From the NCBI RefSeq assembly GCF_056712565.1, contig NZ_CM160072.1: DNA of 64,000 bases; one strand, 5' to 3'. Positions 17,884 through 24,873 of the stretch are shown here, piece by piece; the first letter of the stretch is position 1; each line of letters starts with the position of its first letter. The translations under genes and the position numbers were made by a program. Under the pieces are notes generated by a model that was given only the letters and a program-made list of their open reading frames with translations, was not told the DNA's origin and did no database searches.

Positions 17884-20430
17884 TTGTACCTCTATATTGA
17901 GACTCTGAAACAGAGACTGGATGCCATAAATCAATTGCGTGTGGATCGCGCGCTTGCTGCTATGGGGCCTGCATTCCAACAGGTCTACAGTCTACTGCCG
18001 ACATTGTTGCACTATCACCATCCGCTAATGCCGGGTTACCTTGATGGTAACGTTCCCAAAGGCATTTGCCTTTACACGCCTGATGAAACTCAACGCCACT
18101 ACCTGAACGAGCTTGAACTGTATCGTGGAATGTCAGTACAGGACCCACCGAAAGGTGAGCTTCCAATTACTGGTGTATACACCATGGGCAGCACCTCGTC
18201 CGTAGGGCAAAGTTGTTCCTCTGACCTGGATATCTGGGTCTGTCATCAATCCTGGCTCGATAGCGAAGAGCGCCAGTTGCTACAACGTAAATGTAGTCTG
18301 CTGGAAAGCTGGGCCGCCTCGCTGGGTGTGGAAGTCAGCTTCTTCCTGATTGATGAAAACCGCTTCCGTCATAATGAAAGCGGCAGCCTGGGGGGCGAAG
18401 ATTGTGGCTCCACCCAGCATATACTGCTGCTTGACGAATTTTATCGTACCGCCGTGCGTCTCGCCGGTAAGCGTATTCTGTGGAATATGGTGCCGTGCGA
18501 CGAAGAAGAGCATTACGACGACTATGTGATGACGCTTTACGCGCAGGGCGTGTTGACGCCAAATGAATGGCTGGATCTTGGTGGCTTAAGCTCGCTTTCT
18601 GCTGAAGAGTACTTTGGTGCCAGCCTTTGGCAGCTCTACAAGAGTATCGATTCCCCATACAAAGCGGTGCTGAAAACACTGCTGCTGGAAGCCTATTCCT
18701 GGGAATACCCGAACCCACGTCTGCTGGCGAAAGATATCAAACAGCGTTTGCACGACGGCGAAATAGTGTCGTTTGGTCTCGACCCGTATTGCATGATGCT
18801 GGAGCGCGTCACTGAATATCTGACGGCGATCGAAGATTTTACTCGTCTGGATTTAGTTCGCCGATGCTTCTATTTAAAAGTTTGCGAAAAACTCAGCCGT
18901 GAACGCGCCTGCGTAGGCTGGCGTCGTGAAGTGTTAAGCCAGTTGGTGAAAGAGTGGGAATGGGACGATGCTCGTCTGGCGATGCTTGATAATCGCGCTA
19001 ACTGGAAGATTGATCAGGTGCGTGAGGCGCACAACGAGTTGCTCGACGCGATGATGCAGAGCTACCGCAATCTGATCCGCTTTGCGCGTCGCAATAACCT
19101 TAGCGTTTCCGCCAGCCCGCAGGATATCGGTGTTCTGACACGTAAACTGTACGCCGCGTTTGAAGCGTTACCGGGTAAAGTGACGCTGGTAAACCCGCAG
19201 ATTTCACCCGATCTCTCGGAACCGAATCTGACCTTTATTTATGTGCCGCCGGGCCGGGCTAACCGTTCAGGTTGGTATCTGTATAACCGCGCGCCAAATA
19301 TTGAGTCGATCATCAGCCATCAGCCGCTGGAATATAACCGTTACCTGAATAAACTGGTGGCGTGGGCATGGTTTAACGGCCTGCTGACCTCGCGCACCCG
19401 CTTGTATATTAAAGGTAACGGCATTGTCGATTTGCCTAAGTTGCAGGAGATGGTCGCCGACGTGTCGCACCATTTCCCGCTGCGCTTACCTGCACCGACA
19501 CCGAAGGCGCTCTACAGCCCGTGTGAGATCCGCCATCTGGCGATTATCGTTAACCTGGAATATGACCCGACAGCTGCGTTCCGCAATCAGGTGGTGCATT
19601 TTGATTTCCGTAAGCTGGATGTCTTCAGCTTTGGCGAGAATCAAAATTGCCTGGTAGGTAGCGTTGACCTGCTGTATCGCAACTCGTGGAACGAAGTGCG
19701 TACGCTGCACTTCAACGGCGAGCAATCGATGATCGAAGCCCTGAAAACTATTCTCGGCAAAATGCATCAGGACGCCGCGCCGCCAGATAGCGTGGAAGTC
19801 TTCTGTTATAGCCAGCATCTGCGCGGCTTAATCCGTACTCGCGTGCAGCAACTGGTTTCTGAGTGTATTGAACTGCGTCTTTCCAGCACCCGCCAGGAAA
19901 CCGGGCGCTTCAAGGCGCTGCGCGTCTCCGGTCAAACCTGGGGCTTGTTCTTCGAACGGCTGAATGTCTCGGTACAGAAACTGGAAAACGCCATCGAGTT
20001 TTATGGCGCTATTTCGCATAACAAACTGCACGGCCTGTCAGTGCAGGTTGAAACCAATCACGTCAAATTACCGGCGGTGGTGGACGGCTTTGCCAGCGAA
20101 GGGATCATCCAGTTTTTCTTCGAAGAAACGCAAGACGAGAATGGCTTTAATATCTACATTCTCGACGAAAGCAACCGGGTTGAGGTGTATCACCACTGCG
20201 AAGGCAGCAAAGAGGAACTGGTGCGTGACGTCAGTCGCTTCTACTCGTCTTCGCACGACCGTTTCACCTACGGCTCAAGCTTCATCAACTTCAACCTGCC
20301 GCAGTTCTATCAGATTGTGAAGGTTGATGGTCGTGAACAGGTGATTCCGTTTCGCACCAAATCTATCGGTAACATGCCACCTGCCAATCAGGAGCATGAC
20401 GCGCCGCTGTTGCAGCAGTATTTTTCGTGA
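17884..20430 (+). CDS. cyaA: adenylate cyclase (class I)
   Basis: 848 aa; TTG initiation codon at 17884; N-terminal [17 protein letters not shown]. Confidence 0.9.
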
Positions 20431-20469
20431 TGAAAGTGCCGGAAAGCGAGGCTTATCCGGCATGCAATC

Positions 20470-20790
20470 TTAGCGGAAACTAACTGTTTCACCCGCCTGC
20501 TGCGTCGCCGCCTGTTCCAGCAAATCCCAGAAGGTTTCACCGCTACGATCGCAAATCCACTCGTCGCCTTTCAGATCAAAATGGTAGCCACCCTGTTTGG
20601 TTGCCAGCCACACCTGGTGCAGTGGTTCCTGGCGGTTGATAATGATTTTGCTGCCGTTCTCAAAGGTAATGGTTAGTACACCGCCGTTGATTTCACAGTC
20701 GATATCGCTGTCGCCATCCCAGTCGTCCAGATGTTCTTCAATGGTCAGCCACAGTTGATCAGCCAGGCGATGAAATTCACTGTCGTTCAT
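20470..20790 (-). CDS. cyaY: frataxin homolog CyaY
   Basis: 106 aa; convergent with cyaA. Confidence 0.9.
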
Positions 20791-20837
20791 TGTTGTATCC
20801 TGTTTTTAAGTGATGGCGGCAGTATAGCGGCATGGGG

Positions 20838-22154
20838 TCAGGGCTTCAAAGTTTGCCCGTCTGCTGCTGCGTTCCGGCATGATTCATCCGTCACCGGAAT
20901 AATAATGTCGCTGTTATGAATTTCACGGACATTCTCTTCTCTGACGCGTGTTTTCGCCGGGCAGTGGGAGGGCGTAATCCTTACCTCTGTATCAGTCCAG
21001 GTATAAACATTGCGATCGTCATAAGCGAAGCGATCGTTTTTAGTTAGCGGACCGTTAACTGGAATAATTTGCACGCTCTTGCGTGACCGTAATTGGCGGA
21101 TAAAGTAAGCATGTTGTTTGCCGCTATTAAATGAGTCATCAATGACCAGGTCTGGCGTATCCAGCGGGATTATCTCAAGCTGGTCTTCACCAAAAGTCGA
21201 TAATTTTGTTACATACAGTCGATCTTTATACTGCGCAATATTGTCAGTAATCAGATGAAATTGTTCAGGTTCAATACCCGGTAGGTCTATCCACTTGCTC
21301 CACTGACGGTCGGGCGTGAGCTGTTTACGCCAGCGAACGCGACTTTCCCCTACTTCAAAAGAGACGTCATCATCTACGGGTATCGCTTTGCCAGATAATT
21401 GACCAAAGGGATAACGATGCAGACCCTTATTGTCGCGAAAAACCAGCAGTGAATGAGGTATCCAGCGAATTATCTCAAATGAGTCTGCATTCGCCGTAAG
21501 GTGAGCGCCATTTAAATAAATATTCTGCCCACTGCGGATAAGCAGATCATTGGAATACAAATTTCTGTTTACACTCATAAGACGTGGATTAATACCCCAC
21601 CATCTTTTTTCTAATACAGTAACATTACTGCTGCTCCCCTGACGTCGACCGGACAAGTAGAGATTTTTACTATCCACCAGCGTGGTAGAGTTACCTTCGA
21701 TAGCTTTTAGTGTCGCCAGATCAACACGTGACGCGCCGCTATTACTTTCGGTACGCTGTCCGTCAAAATAGAGGCTATATTTATCGACCGCGAAGCGGCC
21801 CATAGCCTGAAAGCTGGCAATATCGACAGTGGGTGTTCCCGGTGGATTGCTAACGATTTTGCCACGCCAGAGAATAACGTGGCCGTCTGTCACCCAGTGA
21901 TATTCCTCATTTTCTATGCTTATTTCATCGGAAGGTATATAACCCGTCTTCCCAGAGATATTTTTCACAAGGCGCAAATCGGCCCTGTTCATCTCCGGAA
22001 ATTGGGCAATGATTTTCTTATCCCCCCAATAACCTTTACCGTAAGACATGACACTGTGATCATTGTAATAGTCGAACCCTATGGCCTGTACAGGAGGTGT
22101 CAGAAATGTGTTCCCCAACAGGATGAGTGCAACTGTGATTATTTGACCATTCAT
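20838..22154 (-). CDS. secreted repeat protein with recurring D-K/R-x-(L/V/I)-Y motifs (DKNYY-like), function unknown
   Basis: 438 aa; N-terminal signal peptide; motifs DKYSLYFDG, KNLYLSG, QNIYLNG, DRLYVTK, DRNVYTW; not in K-12 gene order as I recall it. Confidence 0.6.
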   Translation of the reverse strand: MNGQIITVALILLGNTFLTPPVQAIGFDYYNDHSVMSYGKGYWGDKKIIAQFPEMNRADLRLVKNISGKTGYIPSDEISIENEEYHWVTDGHVILWRGKIVSNPPGTPTVDIASFQAMGRFAVDKYSLYFDGQRTESNSGASRVDLATLKAIEGNSTTLVDSKNLYLSGRRQGSSSNVTVLEKRWWGINPRLMSVNRNLYSNDLLIRSGQNIYLNGAHLTANADSFEIIRWIPHSLLVFRDNKGLHRYPFGQLSGKAIPVDDDVSFEVGESRVRWRKQLTPDRQWSKWIDLPGIEPEQFHLITDNIAQYKDRLYVTKLSTFGEDQLEIIPLDTPDLVIDDSFNSGKQHAYFIRQLRSRKSVQIIPVNGPLTKNDRFAYDDRNVYTWTDTEVRITPSHCPAKTRVREENVREIHNSDIIIPVTDESCRNAAADGQTLKP

Positions 22155-23650
22155 TTTGTTGCCTCATTGCGTGGGGCAGGAATAAATTCGCCGTCATCGG
22201 TAATTTTTCCGTCCAGATATCCCGTTTTGTAATTTACGCCATAGCCATATCCCGAATGTTGTTCCTTCCAGATTAAGCGAACTTGTTTCGGATCAGCGGT
22301 GCGGTATCGCCAGAGCTGCGCGCCATCAAAGCTGTAAACGTAGCGGTTATCGCGGGCATACCATCTGCGCAAAAAGGGATGGTCATTAAGATGGGCTTCG
22401 CGTTCATCCGGAGAGCGGTTATCCAGTAAGATCAGCGGTCCGTCAGATTCAAACACGTGTAAACTGGAATGGTTTACCCACCCTTCGGCACGCGTAAGTA
22501 AATAGCCGTGGCGTTTCCCGGCGTTGAAACGTTTGTTGATAATAAGATTGGGGTCATCGAGTTTTACGATCTCCAACTTGCGGTCACCAGACTCTGTTTC
22601 GATGATGGTATAAAGCGAATCCTGATACTGGGCGACAGCATCACTGATGGGGTGGAACTGTTCAGGATCGAGTCCGGATAATTCTTCCTGTTTACAAGCA
22701 GGCCCTTTACGCCAGAACACTTTCTTTTCCTGCAGAGAAAAATCCAGACAGTGCTTTGTTAAATCTTCATCCCACGCCAGATTTTCCTTGTCGAGGACTT
22801 TACGCTACAGCCCGTTTTTATCACGCCAGGTGAAGAGTGAGCCGGGCATCCAGCGCACGACGGAAAAGGTGTCCGGGTCGGCATCCAGTTGTTCTCCGTT
22901 GATCATGATTTTCGTCTGTGTGCGGGCTAGCGTATCCCAGGGGCCAAATGGGGCAGGAAGGCAGGGATTAAATGCTGTAGAGAATTTACCGCGCTGATCC
23001 CATGACTTTTGAGCCAGTACCGTAAAGGTGTCGGGATCATCAAGGCGCTGACCATTTGCGTAAAGATAGTGCTTGTCACGGAGAATCAAACCTAGCCAGT
23101 CTGGTTTCCATTGCGGGTTAAATTCTACCTGACGCAACGTTCGGCGGTTTAGTTGCTGGTTGCTATCGGTGCGTTTGCCTTCGTAATAGAGGCTGTACTT
23201 ATCTGCGGCAAAATCACCCCATGCCTGAAATGACGAGATATCGACTGGCGGTGTGCCTGGAGGGTTTTGCACAATCTCGCCAGCGTAGAGAATAGCGCGA
23301 CCATCGCTATAGTAAGAGTAATGGGGAAGAGTTGCGTTTGCGCCGCTGTAGACAACGTCTGTCATGAGATTGGTAGCCGGGGGCACCGTTTCCCAATCCT
23401 CCAGTTTGGTTGGGTCAATTAGCAAATTCGGTAACAGACGCAGACGCTTGTAGTTAATCTGCGGTAGCGAAAGATTGGTCTTTTCATAAGGGCGCAAATA
23501 CACCACGCCTTTTCCCTGTTTCTGGTAAATATTATGTTCCGGCTCATCAAGCCGACATCCCCATGCCGACGATAAAAACAACGAACAAGACAATAAACAA
23601 ACCACATTGCGATAGTGCATAAAGCCATCCTGGCGCGAGGTGCCGATCAC
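22151..23650 (-). pseudogene. paralog of the adjacent DKNYY-like gene interrupted by one in-frame TAG (minus-strand codon at 22805..22807)
   Basis: ORFs 22805..23650 and 22151..22720 are in the same frame; read-through joins them without further stops and the product aligns along the neighbouring 438 aa protein (EPEQFH, DKYSLY blocks). Confidence 0.6.
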
Positions 23651-23808
23651 GAAACTACCAGCAAAACATAAATCCCCACGTGTAAGCGTTATACTCGCAG
23701 CATTTCCTCACTTTTCAGACTTCATAAAGAGTCGCTAAACGCTTGCTTTTACGCCTTCTCCTGCGATGATAGAAAGCAGAAAGCGATGAACTTTACAGGC
23801 AATCCATA

Positions 23809-24012
23809 ATGAAAAACGTGTTTAAGGCACTCACTGTATTACTTACTCTCTTCAGCCTGACGGGCTGCGGTCTGAAAGGTCCGCTCTATTTCCCGCCTGC
23901 AGATAAAAACGCACCGCCGCCGACCAAACCGGTAGAGACGCAAACGCAATCCACGGTGCCGGACAAAAACGACCGCGCCACTGGCGATGGTCCATCCCAG
24001 GTGAATTACTAA
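23809..24012 (+). CDS. yifL: small lipoprotein YifL
   Basis: 67 aa; lipobox LTGC; immediately upstream of dapF. Confidence 0.8.
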   Translation: MKNVFKALTVLLTLFSLTGCGLKGPLYFPPADKNAPPPTKPVETQTQSTVPDKNDRATGDGPSQVNY

Positions 24013-24048
24013 AAGTCAGTTTCTGTACCCGCGTGATTGGAGTAAATG

Positions 24049-24873
24049 ATGCAGTTCTCGAAAATGCATGGCCTTGGCAACGATTTTATGGTCGTCGACG
24101 CGGTAACGCAGAATGTCTTTTTTTCACCGGAGCTGATTCGTCGCCTGGCGGATCGGCACCTGGGGGTAGGGTTTGACCAATTGCTGGTGGTTGAGCCGCC
24201 GTATGATCCTGAACTGGATTTTCACTATCGCATTTTCAATGCTGATGGCAGTGAAGTGGCGCAGTGCGGCAACGGCGCGCGCTGCTTTGCCCGTTTTGTG
24301 CGCCTGAAAGGGCTGACCAATAAGCGCGATATCCGCGTCAGCACCGCCAACGGGCGGATGGTTCTGACCGTCACCGATGATGATCTGGTCCGCGTAAATA
24401 TGGGCGAACCCAACTTCGAACCTTCCGCCGTGCCGTTTCGCGCTAACAAAGCGGAAAAGACCTATATTATGCGCGCCGCCGAGCAGACAATCTTATGCGG
24501 CGTGGTGTCGATGGGAAATCCACATTGCGTGATTCAGGTCGATGATGTCGATACCGCTGCGGTAGAAACGCTTGGTCCTGTTCTGGAAAGCCACGAACGT
24601 TTCCCGGAGCGCGCCAATATCGGTTTTATGCAAGTGGTTAAGCGCGAGCATATTCGTTTACGCGTTTATGAGCGTGGGGCAGGAGAAACCCAGGCCTGCG
24701 GCAGCGGCGCGTGTGCGGCGGTTGCAGTAGGGATCCAGCAAGGTTTGCTGGCCGAAGAAGTACGCGTGGAGCTCCCCGGCGGTCGTCTTGATATCGCCTG
24801 GAAAGGTCCGGGTCACCCGTTATATATGACTGGCCCGGCGGTACATGTCTACGACGGATTTATTCATCTATGA
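24049..24873 (+). CDS. dapF: diaminopimelate epimerase
   Basis: Start at [13 protein letters not shown] (274 aa); two catalytic Cys motifs (GNGARC, GSGACA). Confidence 0.9.

What the first reader, a model, noticed from the sequence alone, without database searches (positions are those of the whole stretch)
20838..23650. Tandem DKNYY-like secreted repeat proteins inserted between cyaY and yifL
Seen in sequence: two paralogous minus-strand genes with signal peptides and recurring D-K/R-x-(L/V/I)-Y motifs; the second is split by a single in-frame TAG and the two overlap by 4 nt. As I recall, K-12 has only a short intergenic region between cyaY and yifL. Function is unknown.
Basis: partly seen in the sequence, partly recalled or inferred. 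Interest (0 to 1): 0.5.

Follow-up and report, generated by a model that had tools for sequence, protein, structure and literature searches.

The report
Old envelope gene pair, one broken
Two related genes for exported proteins of unknown function lie between cyaY and lptM (yifL) in this E. coli type strain; they are an old, annotated, variable locus that K-12 lost by deletion rather than a new insertion, and one copy carries a recent stop codon.

Summary
The window is E. coli ATCC 11775. It carries two minus-strand paralogues (36% identity, E=1e-61): g1 (20838-22154, 438 aa, intact) and g2 (22151-23620/23650). g2 has a single in-frame TAG at 22805-22807, and the two genes share a 4-nt ATGA overlap.

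The "inserted" interpretation is wrong. K-12 keeps both ends of the locus and lacks exactly 20915-23463, a clean 2549-bp deletion whose junction occurs in at least 1924 of 5426 complete genomes. The same lptM-[g2][g1]-cyaY arrangement occurs in Citrobacter and Atlantibacter, as a fused gene in Salmonella, and as four tandem copies in Klebsiella spallanzanii.

The TAG is a CAG>TAG change found in 80 genomes (S88 and APEC K1 strains); 1038 genomes have CAG.

The most likely reading is a lipoprotein (g2) plus a soluble periplasmic paralogue (g1), both non-enzymatic binding scaffolds. An orphan immunity or inhibitor role is speculative. Already annotated; low interest.

The parts
20838..22154 (-). 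g1: intact 438-aa gene (WP_001014285.1), a predicted soluble periplasmic paralogue
   Evidence: ORF found and RefSeq CDS. The AF2 model is all-beta with pLDDT 79.8. dN/dS against strain PBS4 is 0.28.
22083..22154 (-). g1 signal peptide (residues 1-24, ...PPVQA|IG), Sec/SPase I type
   Evidence: Sequence. Orthologues keep a hydrophobic core followed by A-x-A. The AF2 model gives a low-confidence N-terminal helix at residues 3-14. No SignalP was run.
21390..21905 (-). g1 N-domain (residues 84-255): about four degenerate DKNYY-type repeats
   Evidence: hhalign against an independent DKNYY alignment gives probability 98.8%, E=6.3e-17. Pfam PF13644 matches residues 73-244 at E=0.014.
20955..21371 (-). 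g1 C-domain (residues 262-400): family-specific, weakly DKNYY-like
   Evidence: hhalign against DKNYY gives probability 82%, E=1e-5. N-domain versus C-domain is not significant, E=0.12. There is no Pfam hit.
22151..23620 (-). g2: pseudogene of a 489-aa predicted lipoprotein paralogue (the ORF caller extends it to GTG 23650)
   Evidence: RefSeq lists it as 'DKNYY family protein, internal stop'. Translation. The intact orthologue in PBS4 is 502 aa from the GTG start.
22805..22807 (-). Premature TAG (codon 272 from ATG 23620), derived from CAG (Gln), at the N-domain/C-domain boundary
   Evidence: The TAG 45-mer occurs in 80 genomes and the CAG 45-mer in 1038. It aligns to g1 residue ~246, just before the pLDDT dip at residues 251-260.
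23555..23620 (-). g2 signal peptide ending in Cys22 (…LSSAWG|C), a lipoprotein-type signal with a non-canonical lipobox
   Evidence: Homologues have LAC, QAC or TAC followed by Cys at the same position. UniProt names many homologues 'Lipoprotein'.
22151..22154 (-). ATGA overlap between the g2 stop and the g1 start; a GAGG Shine-Dalgarno lies 7 nt upstream of the ATG
   Evidence: Sequence. The same 4-nt overlap occurs in PBS4 and Citrobacter.
20915..23463 (.). Segment missing in K-12, O157:H7 and most E. coli (a 2549-bp deletion)
   Evidence: blastn of the window against L003, L018 (MG1655) and L019. The junction 44-mer is present in 1924 genomes.
20821..20849 (-). Promoter-like site TTGAAG-17-TATACT upstream of cyaY, overlapping the end of g1 and retained by the K-12 deletion
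   Evidence: Consensus scan only. The sequence is present in K-12.
23621..23808 (.). Divergent intergenic region between g2 and lptM. In some E. coli this region plus the g2 5' end is duplicated around an inserted DUF3304 gene

Best explanation
This is an ancestral but dispensable two-gene cell-envelope locus of Enterobacteriaceae. It sits next to lptM and upstream of cyaY.

The upstream gene, g2, encodes a lipoprotein. The downstream gene, g1, encodes a soluble periplasmic paralogue. Each protein is an all-beta protein built from roughly four clear and about three weaker degenerate DKNYY-type repeats. The most likely role is a non-enzymatic binding scaffold working in the periplasm or at the outer membrane, probably as a pair, because the two genes stay adjacent or overlapping across genera.

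In ATCC 11775 and 79 related genomes, g2 was recently cut short by a CAG>TAG mutation at the boundary between its two domains. At most a truncated N-domain lipoprotein can be made. g1 is left intact but may be less expressed through polarity. Most E. coli, including K-12, lost the whole locus by one 2549-bp deletion that spared the cyaY promoter region.

Shown here: the anatomy, the paralogy, the allele counts, the deletion, the synteny, the DKNYY kinship and purifying selection.

Inferred: export and lipidation, pairing of the two proteins, the binding role, and polarity.
For: - Identity of the window and its annotation.
- Paralogy.
- TAG versus CAG: 80 versus 1038 genomes.
- Clean deletion with both stubs retained. 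Junction found in 1924 genomes.
- Synteny in Citrobacter, Atlantibacter, Salmonella as a fused 670-aa gene and K. spallanzanii as four paralogues beside lptM. A lipoprotein plus periplasmic pair also occurs at an unrelated locus.
- Both genes are under purifying selection: omega 0.28 for g1 and 0.18 for g2, against <=0.04 for the flanking genes.
- Signal peptide and lipobox Cys are conserved. A conserved Cys pair in g1 (C398, C426) fits an oxidising compartment.
- DKNYY link.
- The AF2 model is all-beta, pLDDT 79.8.
- No hit to any enzyme, defence or phage family.
Against: - No experiment or paper bears on function. The only paper in the library containing 'DKNYY' merely lists such a gene.
- Export was judged by eye. 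The g2 lipobox (A-W-G-C) is non-canonical.
- The g1 signal peptide has no positive charge in its N-region.
- Invariant residues include H348 and several Asp and Arg, so an enzymatic role is not excluded.
- No promoter consensus was found upstream of g2.
- Interaction between g1 and g2 was not tested.
Confidence: 0.75

Rival explanations
1. Orphan immunity or inhibitor module. The exported paralogues bind and neutralise periplasm-acting toxins from competitors, such as T6SS effectors, colicin-like toxins or lytic enzymes, and the locus collects such protective genes.
For: - The proteins are exported, beta-rich and have no enzyme signature.
- Copy number varies from 0 to 4 at one locus within and between species.
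- Allelic divergence is deep: g2 dS is 0.46 and aa identity 87% between two E. coli strains, and g1 alleles of 55-61% identity exist, at least one of them labelled E. coli.
- Loss and pseudogenisation are frequent.
- In many E. coli a DUF3304 gene is inserted directly beside g2. DUF3304 is the domain of Tli1 immunity proteins against the T6SS lipase Tle1.
- One distant homologue lies near an Rhs toxin/orphan array.
Against: - No toxin gene is adjacent in any locus examined.
- No DKNYY protein is reported as an immunity protein in the searchable literature.
- There is no sequence similarity to DUF3304.
- Overall omega is below 1, so there is no evidence of an arms race.
- At 440-500 aa, the proteins are larger than typical immunity proteins.
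Confidence: 0.15
2. One reading: a horizontally acquired island inserted between cyaY and yifL in this lineage.
For: - The genes are absent from K-12.
- GC content is lower than in the flanks: g1 45.7% and g2 49.3% against 51-56%; GC3 0.45 and 0.52 against ~0.59.
Against: - K-12 keeps the 3' 77 bp of g1 and the 5' ~157 bp of g2.
- The gene pair is syntenic in four other genera.
- No integrase, tRNA or mobile-element feature lies in the 3.7 kb examined.
Confidence: 0.03
3. Decaying relic. Neither gene does anything in this strain; g2 is dead and g1 is merely not yet mutated.
For: - g2 carries a nonsense mutation.
- About three quarters of E. coli genomes lack the locus entirely.
- Truncated g1 forms are common in E. 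coli and Shigella.
- Selection is relaxed compared with the neighbouring genes.
Against: - Omega of 0.18-0.28 indicates long-term constraint.
- g1 is full length with its own Shine-Dalgarno sequence.
- The locus has been retained across genera.
Confidence: 0.2
4. Surface-exposed lipoprotein or adhesin, or a target of phage or host immunity, whose variation is driven by outside selection.
For: - g2 has a lipoprotein signal.
- There are strongly divergent alleles and presence/absence polymorphism.
- True DKNYY proteins sometimes carry SLH cell-surface domains.
Against: - There is no evidence of surface exposure.
- g1 has no anchor.
- Omega is below 1.
Confidence: 0.1
5. The TAG is a sequencing error, or is read through, so g2 is functional.
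For: It is a single-base difference from the intact allele.
Against: The identical TAG 45-mer occurs in 80 independent complete genomes. Wild E. coli is not expected to suppress amber codons (general knowledge).
Confidence: 0.02

Closest known systems
Pfam PF13644 DKNYY family (multi-repeat proteins of unknown function)
   Same: They share a repeat unit of the form ...(a)D-p-x-x-F-x-x-l...y-x-x-D-K-x-x-(V/L)-Y-y-x-G.... The N-domain aligns to about four units (hhalign 98.8%). The top structural neighbour in the AFDB sample is a DKNYY protein.
   Different: - The window's own proteins fall below Pfam significance.
- There are only about 2 clear DKxxLY motifs per protein.
- The proteins have a family-specific leader segment and C-domain.
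- The subfamily is small: 110 representatives among 1.84 billion proteins. Every named source organism seen among its closer members belongs to Enterobacterales.
- It is organised as a lipoprotein plus periplasmic pair.
Tli1 / DUF3304 immunity proteins against T6SS Tle1 phospholipases
   Same: Both are exported beta-rich envelope proteins found in variable tandem arrays. A DUF3304 gene sits directly beside g2 in many E. coli.
   Different: There is no sequence relationship, no Tle1 or VgrG gene nearby, and a much larger protein. The DUF3304 gene is absent from this window.
The cyaY-lptM gap of K-12 MG1655 (yzcX/b3808 region)
   Same: It is the same chromosomal position and holds the remnants of g1 and g2.
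   Different: In MG1655, yzcX is annotated on the opposite strand, overlapping cyaY and the deletion scar. PGAP instead calls the minus-strand stub a DKNYY pseudogene.
Beta-propeller repeat proteins (WD40, sialidase-like)

Membership tests
Pfam DKNYY (PF13644) | Significant match of the protein itself to the PF13644 HMM | tested here: not met
   g1 gives E=0.014 and 0.065. The intact g2 orthologue gives E=10. NCBIfam gives no hit.
Pfam DKNYY (PF13644) | Family-level homology (profile to profile, and reciprocal retrieval of true members) | tested here: met
   - 6 of 19 homologues hit PF13644 at E<=1e-3, best 5.4e-6.
- The weakest full-length hits of the family profile search (21 checked, E 4e-9 to 1e-3) all carry PF13644, best E=1e-31.
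- hhalign of the N-domain gives probability 98.8%, E=6.3e-17; the C-domain gives 82%, E=1e-5.
Pfam DKNYY (PF13644) | Tandem repeats carrying a D-K-N-Y-Y-like motif | tested here: inconclusive
   The strict motif occurs 1 and 0 times. The relaxed motif occurs 4 times in each protein against ~0.7-0.9 expected. N-domain versus C-domain self-similarity is not significant.
Pfam DKNYY (PF13644) | Fold similar to DKNYY models | tested here: met
Bacterial lipoproteins (g2) | Signal peptide ending in a lipobox with an invariant Cys | tested here: inconclusive
   The Cys is conserved at the end of the hydrophobic region in all g2-type homologues. Distant homologues have canonical L-A-C or Q-A-C. E. coli, Salmonella and Citrobacter have A-W-G-C, which is outside the usual lipobox pattern. 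No LipoP run and no experiment.
Sec-exported periplasmic proteins (g1) | N-terminal signal peptide with an A-x-A cleavage site | tested here: inconclusive
   The N-terminus reads MNGQIITVALILLGNTFLTPPVQA|IG and is conserved in orthologues. A conserved Cys pair is present. It was read by eye only.
Beta-propeller fold | Strong structural match to solved propellers | tested here: not met
T6SS immunity proteins | Adjacent cognate effector gene, or membership of a known immunity family | tested here: not met
   No effector gene lies in any of about 10 neighbourhoods examined. g1 and g2 are not DUF3304.
Known anti-phage defence or phage protein families | Match to PADLOC or PHROGs models | tested here: not met
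   There are 0 hits at E<=0.1.
Genomic island / horizontal insertion | The empty site in relatives lacks remnants, and the locus is absent from related genera | tested here: not met
   The K-12 site holds both gene stubs. The locus is syntenic in Citrobacter, Atlantibacter, Salmonella and Klebsiella spallanzanii.

The most novel reading that the evidence does not exclude
The lipoprotein/periplasmic DKNYY-like pair next to lptM is an orphan immunity or inhibitor module against periplasm-acting toxins of competitors. The cyaY-lptM gap would then be a hot spot where Enterobacteriaceae collect such protective envelope genes, including Tli1-type DUF3304 genes. This would give the first function to any DKNYY-family protein.
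Probability: 0.12. Interest if true: 0.6.

Novelty: already known. Interest (0 to 1): 0.2.

Why it matters
There are two modest points of value.

1. It corrects the direction of the event. K-12, O157:H7 and most other E. coli carry a deletion scar here, not a plain intergenic region. The MG1655 ORF yzcX (b3808) runs across that scar.

2. It defines a small subfamily of DKNYY-like envelope proteins, so far seen only in Enterobacterales. They come as a lipoprotein plus a periplasmic paralogue. Copy number at one locus varies from 0 to 4, and in many strains a T6SS-immunity-type gene has inserted beside them.

If a function were found, such as immunity, inhibition or envelope binding, it would be the first for the DKNYY family. 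Nothing seen here is surprising to a specialist.

Tried and rejected
- NCBIfam, PADLOC and PHROGs scans of g1, g2, the DUF3304 neighbour and the Salmonella 129-aa ORF gave no hits.
- A profile search of PDB sequences gave nothing at E<=10.
- Foldseek against AFDB50 returned only the family's own unannotated members, labelled 'Lipoprotein' or 'DKNYY family protein'.
- Internal N-domain versus C-domain similarity by hhalign was not significant.
- Gene-neighbourhood analysis of distant homologues found no recurrent partner other than paralogues.
- Literature searches found nothing on function. 'DKNYY' returned one irrelevant paper. 'cyaY' plus 'yifL' returned one paper, judged irrelevant from its title and abstract and not opened. 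CFT073 locus-tag guesses returned none.
- Modelling a g2-g1 complex was considered and dropped, because the structure tool returns no interface metrics or coordinates.
- A genome-contig scan was not run, because synteny in five genera already settled the ancestral-versus-inserted question.
- My initial recollection that yzcX is the g2 stub was wrong. In MG1655 it is an opposite-strand ORF.
Full report
**What is there**

The window is 100% identical over 20400-24100 to the chromosome of E. coli ATCC 11775 (DSM 30083), the type strain (H1). On the minus strand, between cyaY (20470-20790) and the plus-strand lptM/yifL (23809-24012), lie two ORFs.

- g1 spans 20838-22154 and encodes 438 aa. It is intact. 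RefSeq lists it as WP_001014285.1, 'hypothetical protein'.
- g2 spans 22151-23620. The mechanical ORF caller extends it to a GTG at 23650. RefSeq annotates it as a 'DKNYY family protein' pseudogene with an internal stop.

Translation of g2 shows one in-frame TAG, at 22805-22807. The g2 stop and the g1 start overlap as ATGA at 22151-22154. A GAGG sits 7 nt before the g1 ATG.

g1 and the intact g2 orthologue of strain PBS4 are 36% identical over 325 residues, E=1e-61. The anatomical observation is therefore confirmed.

**The TAG**

In PBS4 the codon is CAG, Gln. I used 45-mers centred on this base, so that every 28-nt megablast seed must cover it.

- The TAG allele is present in 80 of 5426 complete E. 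coli genomes, including S88 and APEC O1:K1:H7 and O2:K1:H4 strains.
- The CAG allele is present in 1038 genomes, including UTI89, ATCC 25922 and a Nissle (EcN) derivative.

The stop is therefore real, inherited and confined to a minority lineage. It is a recent C>T nonsense mutation.

The stop aligns to g1 residue ~246, just before a dip in model confidence at residues 251-260 that separates two domains. The residual ORF therefore still encodes the signal peptide plus the whole N-domain. The downstream 189-codon ORF (22151-22720) has no export signal. A polar effect on g1 is possible but untested.

**Not an insertion**

Only 1393 of 5426 genomes hold at least 80% of the 3.7-kb query.

K-12 strains, including MG1655, align to the window up to 20914 and resume at 23464, with the two points adjacent in K-12. 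K-12 therefore has a clean 2549-bp internal deletion. It keeps the last 77 bp of g1 and the first ~157 bp of g2. PGAP calls the latter stub a DKNYY pseudogene.

A 44-mer across the junction is found in 1924 genomes, including O157:H7. Essentially the same junction occurs in TUM14668, a strain whose flanks are 97-99% identical to the window.

The retained g1 tail carries a promoter-like TTGAAG-17-TATACT site upstream of cyaY (consensus scan only). This may explain why that boundary is tolerated.

**Synteny in other genera**

- Citrobacter has lptM-[490 aa][435 aa]-cyaY, with the same 4-nt overlap.
- Atlantibacter has lptM-[497][424]-cyaY.
- Salmonella enterica carries a 670-aa fusion of g2 with the C-domain of g1 at the same place.
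- Klebsiella spallanzanii has four tandem paralogues beside lptM.

Within E. coli there are further forms:

- the pair plus an inserted DUF3304 gene;
- a 685-aa fused gene plus DUF3304;
- a fused gene plus a second pair;
- two full pairs.

The locus is therefore ancestral and structurally unstable, and K-12 is the derived state. The somewhat lower GC (g1 45.7%, g2 49.3%, flanks 51-56%) is the only feature that hints at foreign origin.

**Are they real genes?**

Between the window and PBS4, dN/dS is 0.28 for g1 and 0.18 for g2, against 0-0.04 for cyaA, cyaY, lptM, dapF and yigA. This indicates purifying but relaxed selection.

g2 is unusually divergent between the two strains (86% nt identity, dS 0.46). 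g1 alleles of only 55-61% identity also turn up; one is labelled E. coli in UniProt, one comes from Citrobacter, and the rest are unnamed. Truncated g1 forms are common in E. coli and Shigella.

**Family assignment**

The window's proteins fail Pfam significance directly: g1 matches PF13644 at E=0.014 and the g2 orthologue at E=10. NCBIfam gives nothing.

At family level the link is sound:

- 6 of 19 homologues hit PF13644 at E<=1e-3.
- A profile of the 19 homologues, searched against 1.84 billion representative proteins, finds only 110 proteins. Of the weakest full-length hits, 21 were checked (E 4e-9 to 1e-3) and all carry PF13644.
- hhalign of the g1-family N-domain (residues 84-255) against a DKNYY alignment built independently from those proteins gives 98.8% probability, E=6e-17, over about four repeat units. 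The C-domain (residues 262-400) gives 82%, E=1e-5.

This is a divergent, small DKNYY subfamily with its own C-domain; every named source organism among its closer members belongs to Enterobacterales.

**Fold**

The AlphaFold2 model of g1 (19-sequence alignment) has mean pLDDT 79.8 and pTM 0.67, and is entirely beta apart from the signal-peptide helix.

**Localisation (inferred)**

g1-type proteins have a hydrophobic N-terminus ending in A-x-A (VQA|IG here). They also share a conserved C-terminal Cys pair (C398 and C426), which fits an oxidising compartment.

g2-type proteins have a Cys at the end of the hydrophobic stretch. Distant homologues show canonical lipoboxes (L-A-C, Q-A-C, T-A-C). The Escherichia, Salmonella and Citrobacter clade has A-W-G-C. 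UniProt labels many of them 'Lipoprotein'.

The +2 residue is Arg rather than Asp. By the usual Lol sorting rule (general knowledge), this suggests outer-membrane anchoring.

**Function**

Nothing is known. The only paper in the library containing 'DKNYY' merely lists such a gene. No enzyme, defence or phage family matches. Distant homologues have no recurrent neighbour except paralogues.

The explanation I commit to is a dispensable envelope pair, made of a lipoprotein and a soluble periplasmic paralogue, that acts as a non-enzymatic binding scaffold. The lipoprotein is inactivated in this strain.

A more specific idea is that these are orphan immunity or inhibitor proteins against periplasm-acting toxins. 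The points in its favour are:

- variable copy number;
- deep allelic divergence;
- frequent loss;
- export of both proteins;
- the DUF3304 gene inserted directly beside g2 in many E. coli. DUF3304 is the domain of Tli1 immunity proteins against the T6SS lipase Tle1.

Against it, no toxin gene is adjacent anywhere and omega is below 1. I put it at about 0.12-0.15.

**Verdict**

The genes are already annotated in RefSeq and UniProt and occur in more than a thousand complete genomes. Interest is low.

Noticed in passing
L002 4666-4834 and 5749-5917 (equivalent to window 23561-23729): In PBS4 and many other E. coli, a ~0.9-kb segment carrying a DUF3304 (Tli1-type) gene sits between g2 and lptM. 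It is flanked by a ~170-bp direct duplication of the g2 upstream region plus its signal-peptide codons, which leaves a 32-codon stub ORF. The window, Citrobacter and Atlantibacter lack this insertion.
   Followed up: partly
L018 (MG1655) 851-1336; equivalent region of the window ~20581-20914 plus 23464-23620: The MG1655 gene yzcX (b3808) is annotated on the plus strand. It overlaps cyaY antisense and runs across the deletion scar, so it looks like an ORF created or extended by the deletion rather than a conserved gene.
   Followed up: partly
window 20821-20849 (-): A sigma-70-like site, TTGAAG-17-TATACT, lies upstream of cyaY and overlaps the last codons of g1. The K-12 deletion ends just upstream of it.
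   Followed up: no
L004 8001-10381; L015 1937-3994; L014 2937-4964: Salmonella enterica and some E. coli carry a 670-685-aa in-frame fusion of g2 with only the C-domain of g1. In Salmonella it is followed by a 129-aa ORF with a weak DUF3021 hit.
   Followed up: partly
L016 4509-9990; L020 3437-9034; L012 604-5178: Arrays of three or four tandem paralogues occur in Klebsiella spallanzanii, E. coli CP61_Sichuan and an unidentified metagenomic contig. This suggests repeated duplication of the lipoprotein/periplasmic pair.
   Followed up: no
L019 (TUM14668) versus window: The K-12-type deletion junction also occurs on a background whose flanks are 97-99% identical to the window. The deletion allele has therefore either spread by recombination or is old and shared across lineages.
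   Followed up: no
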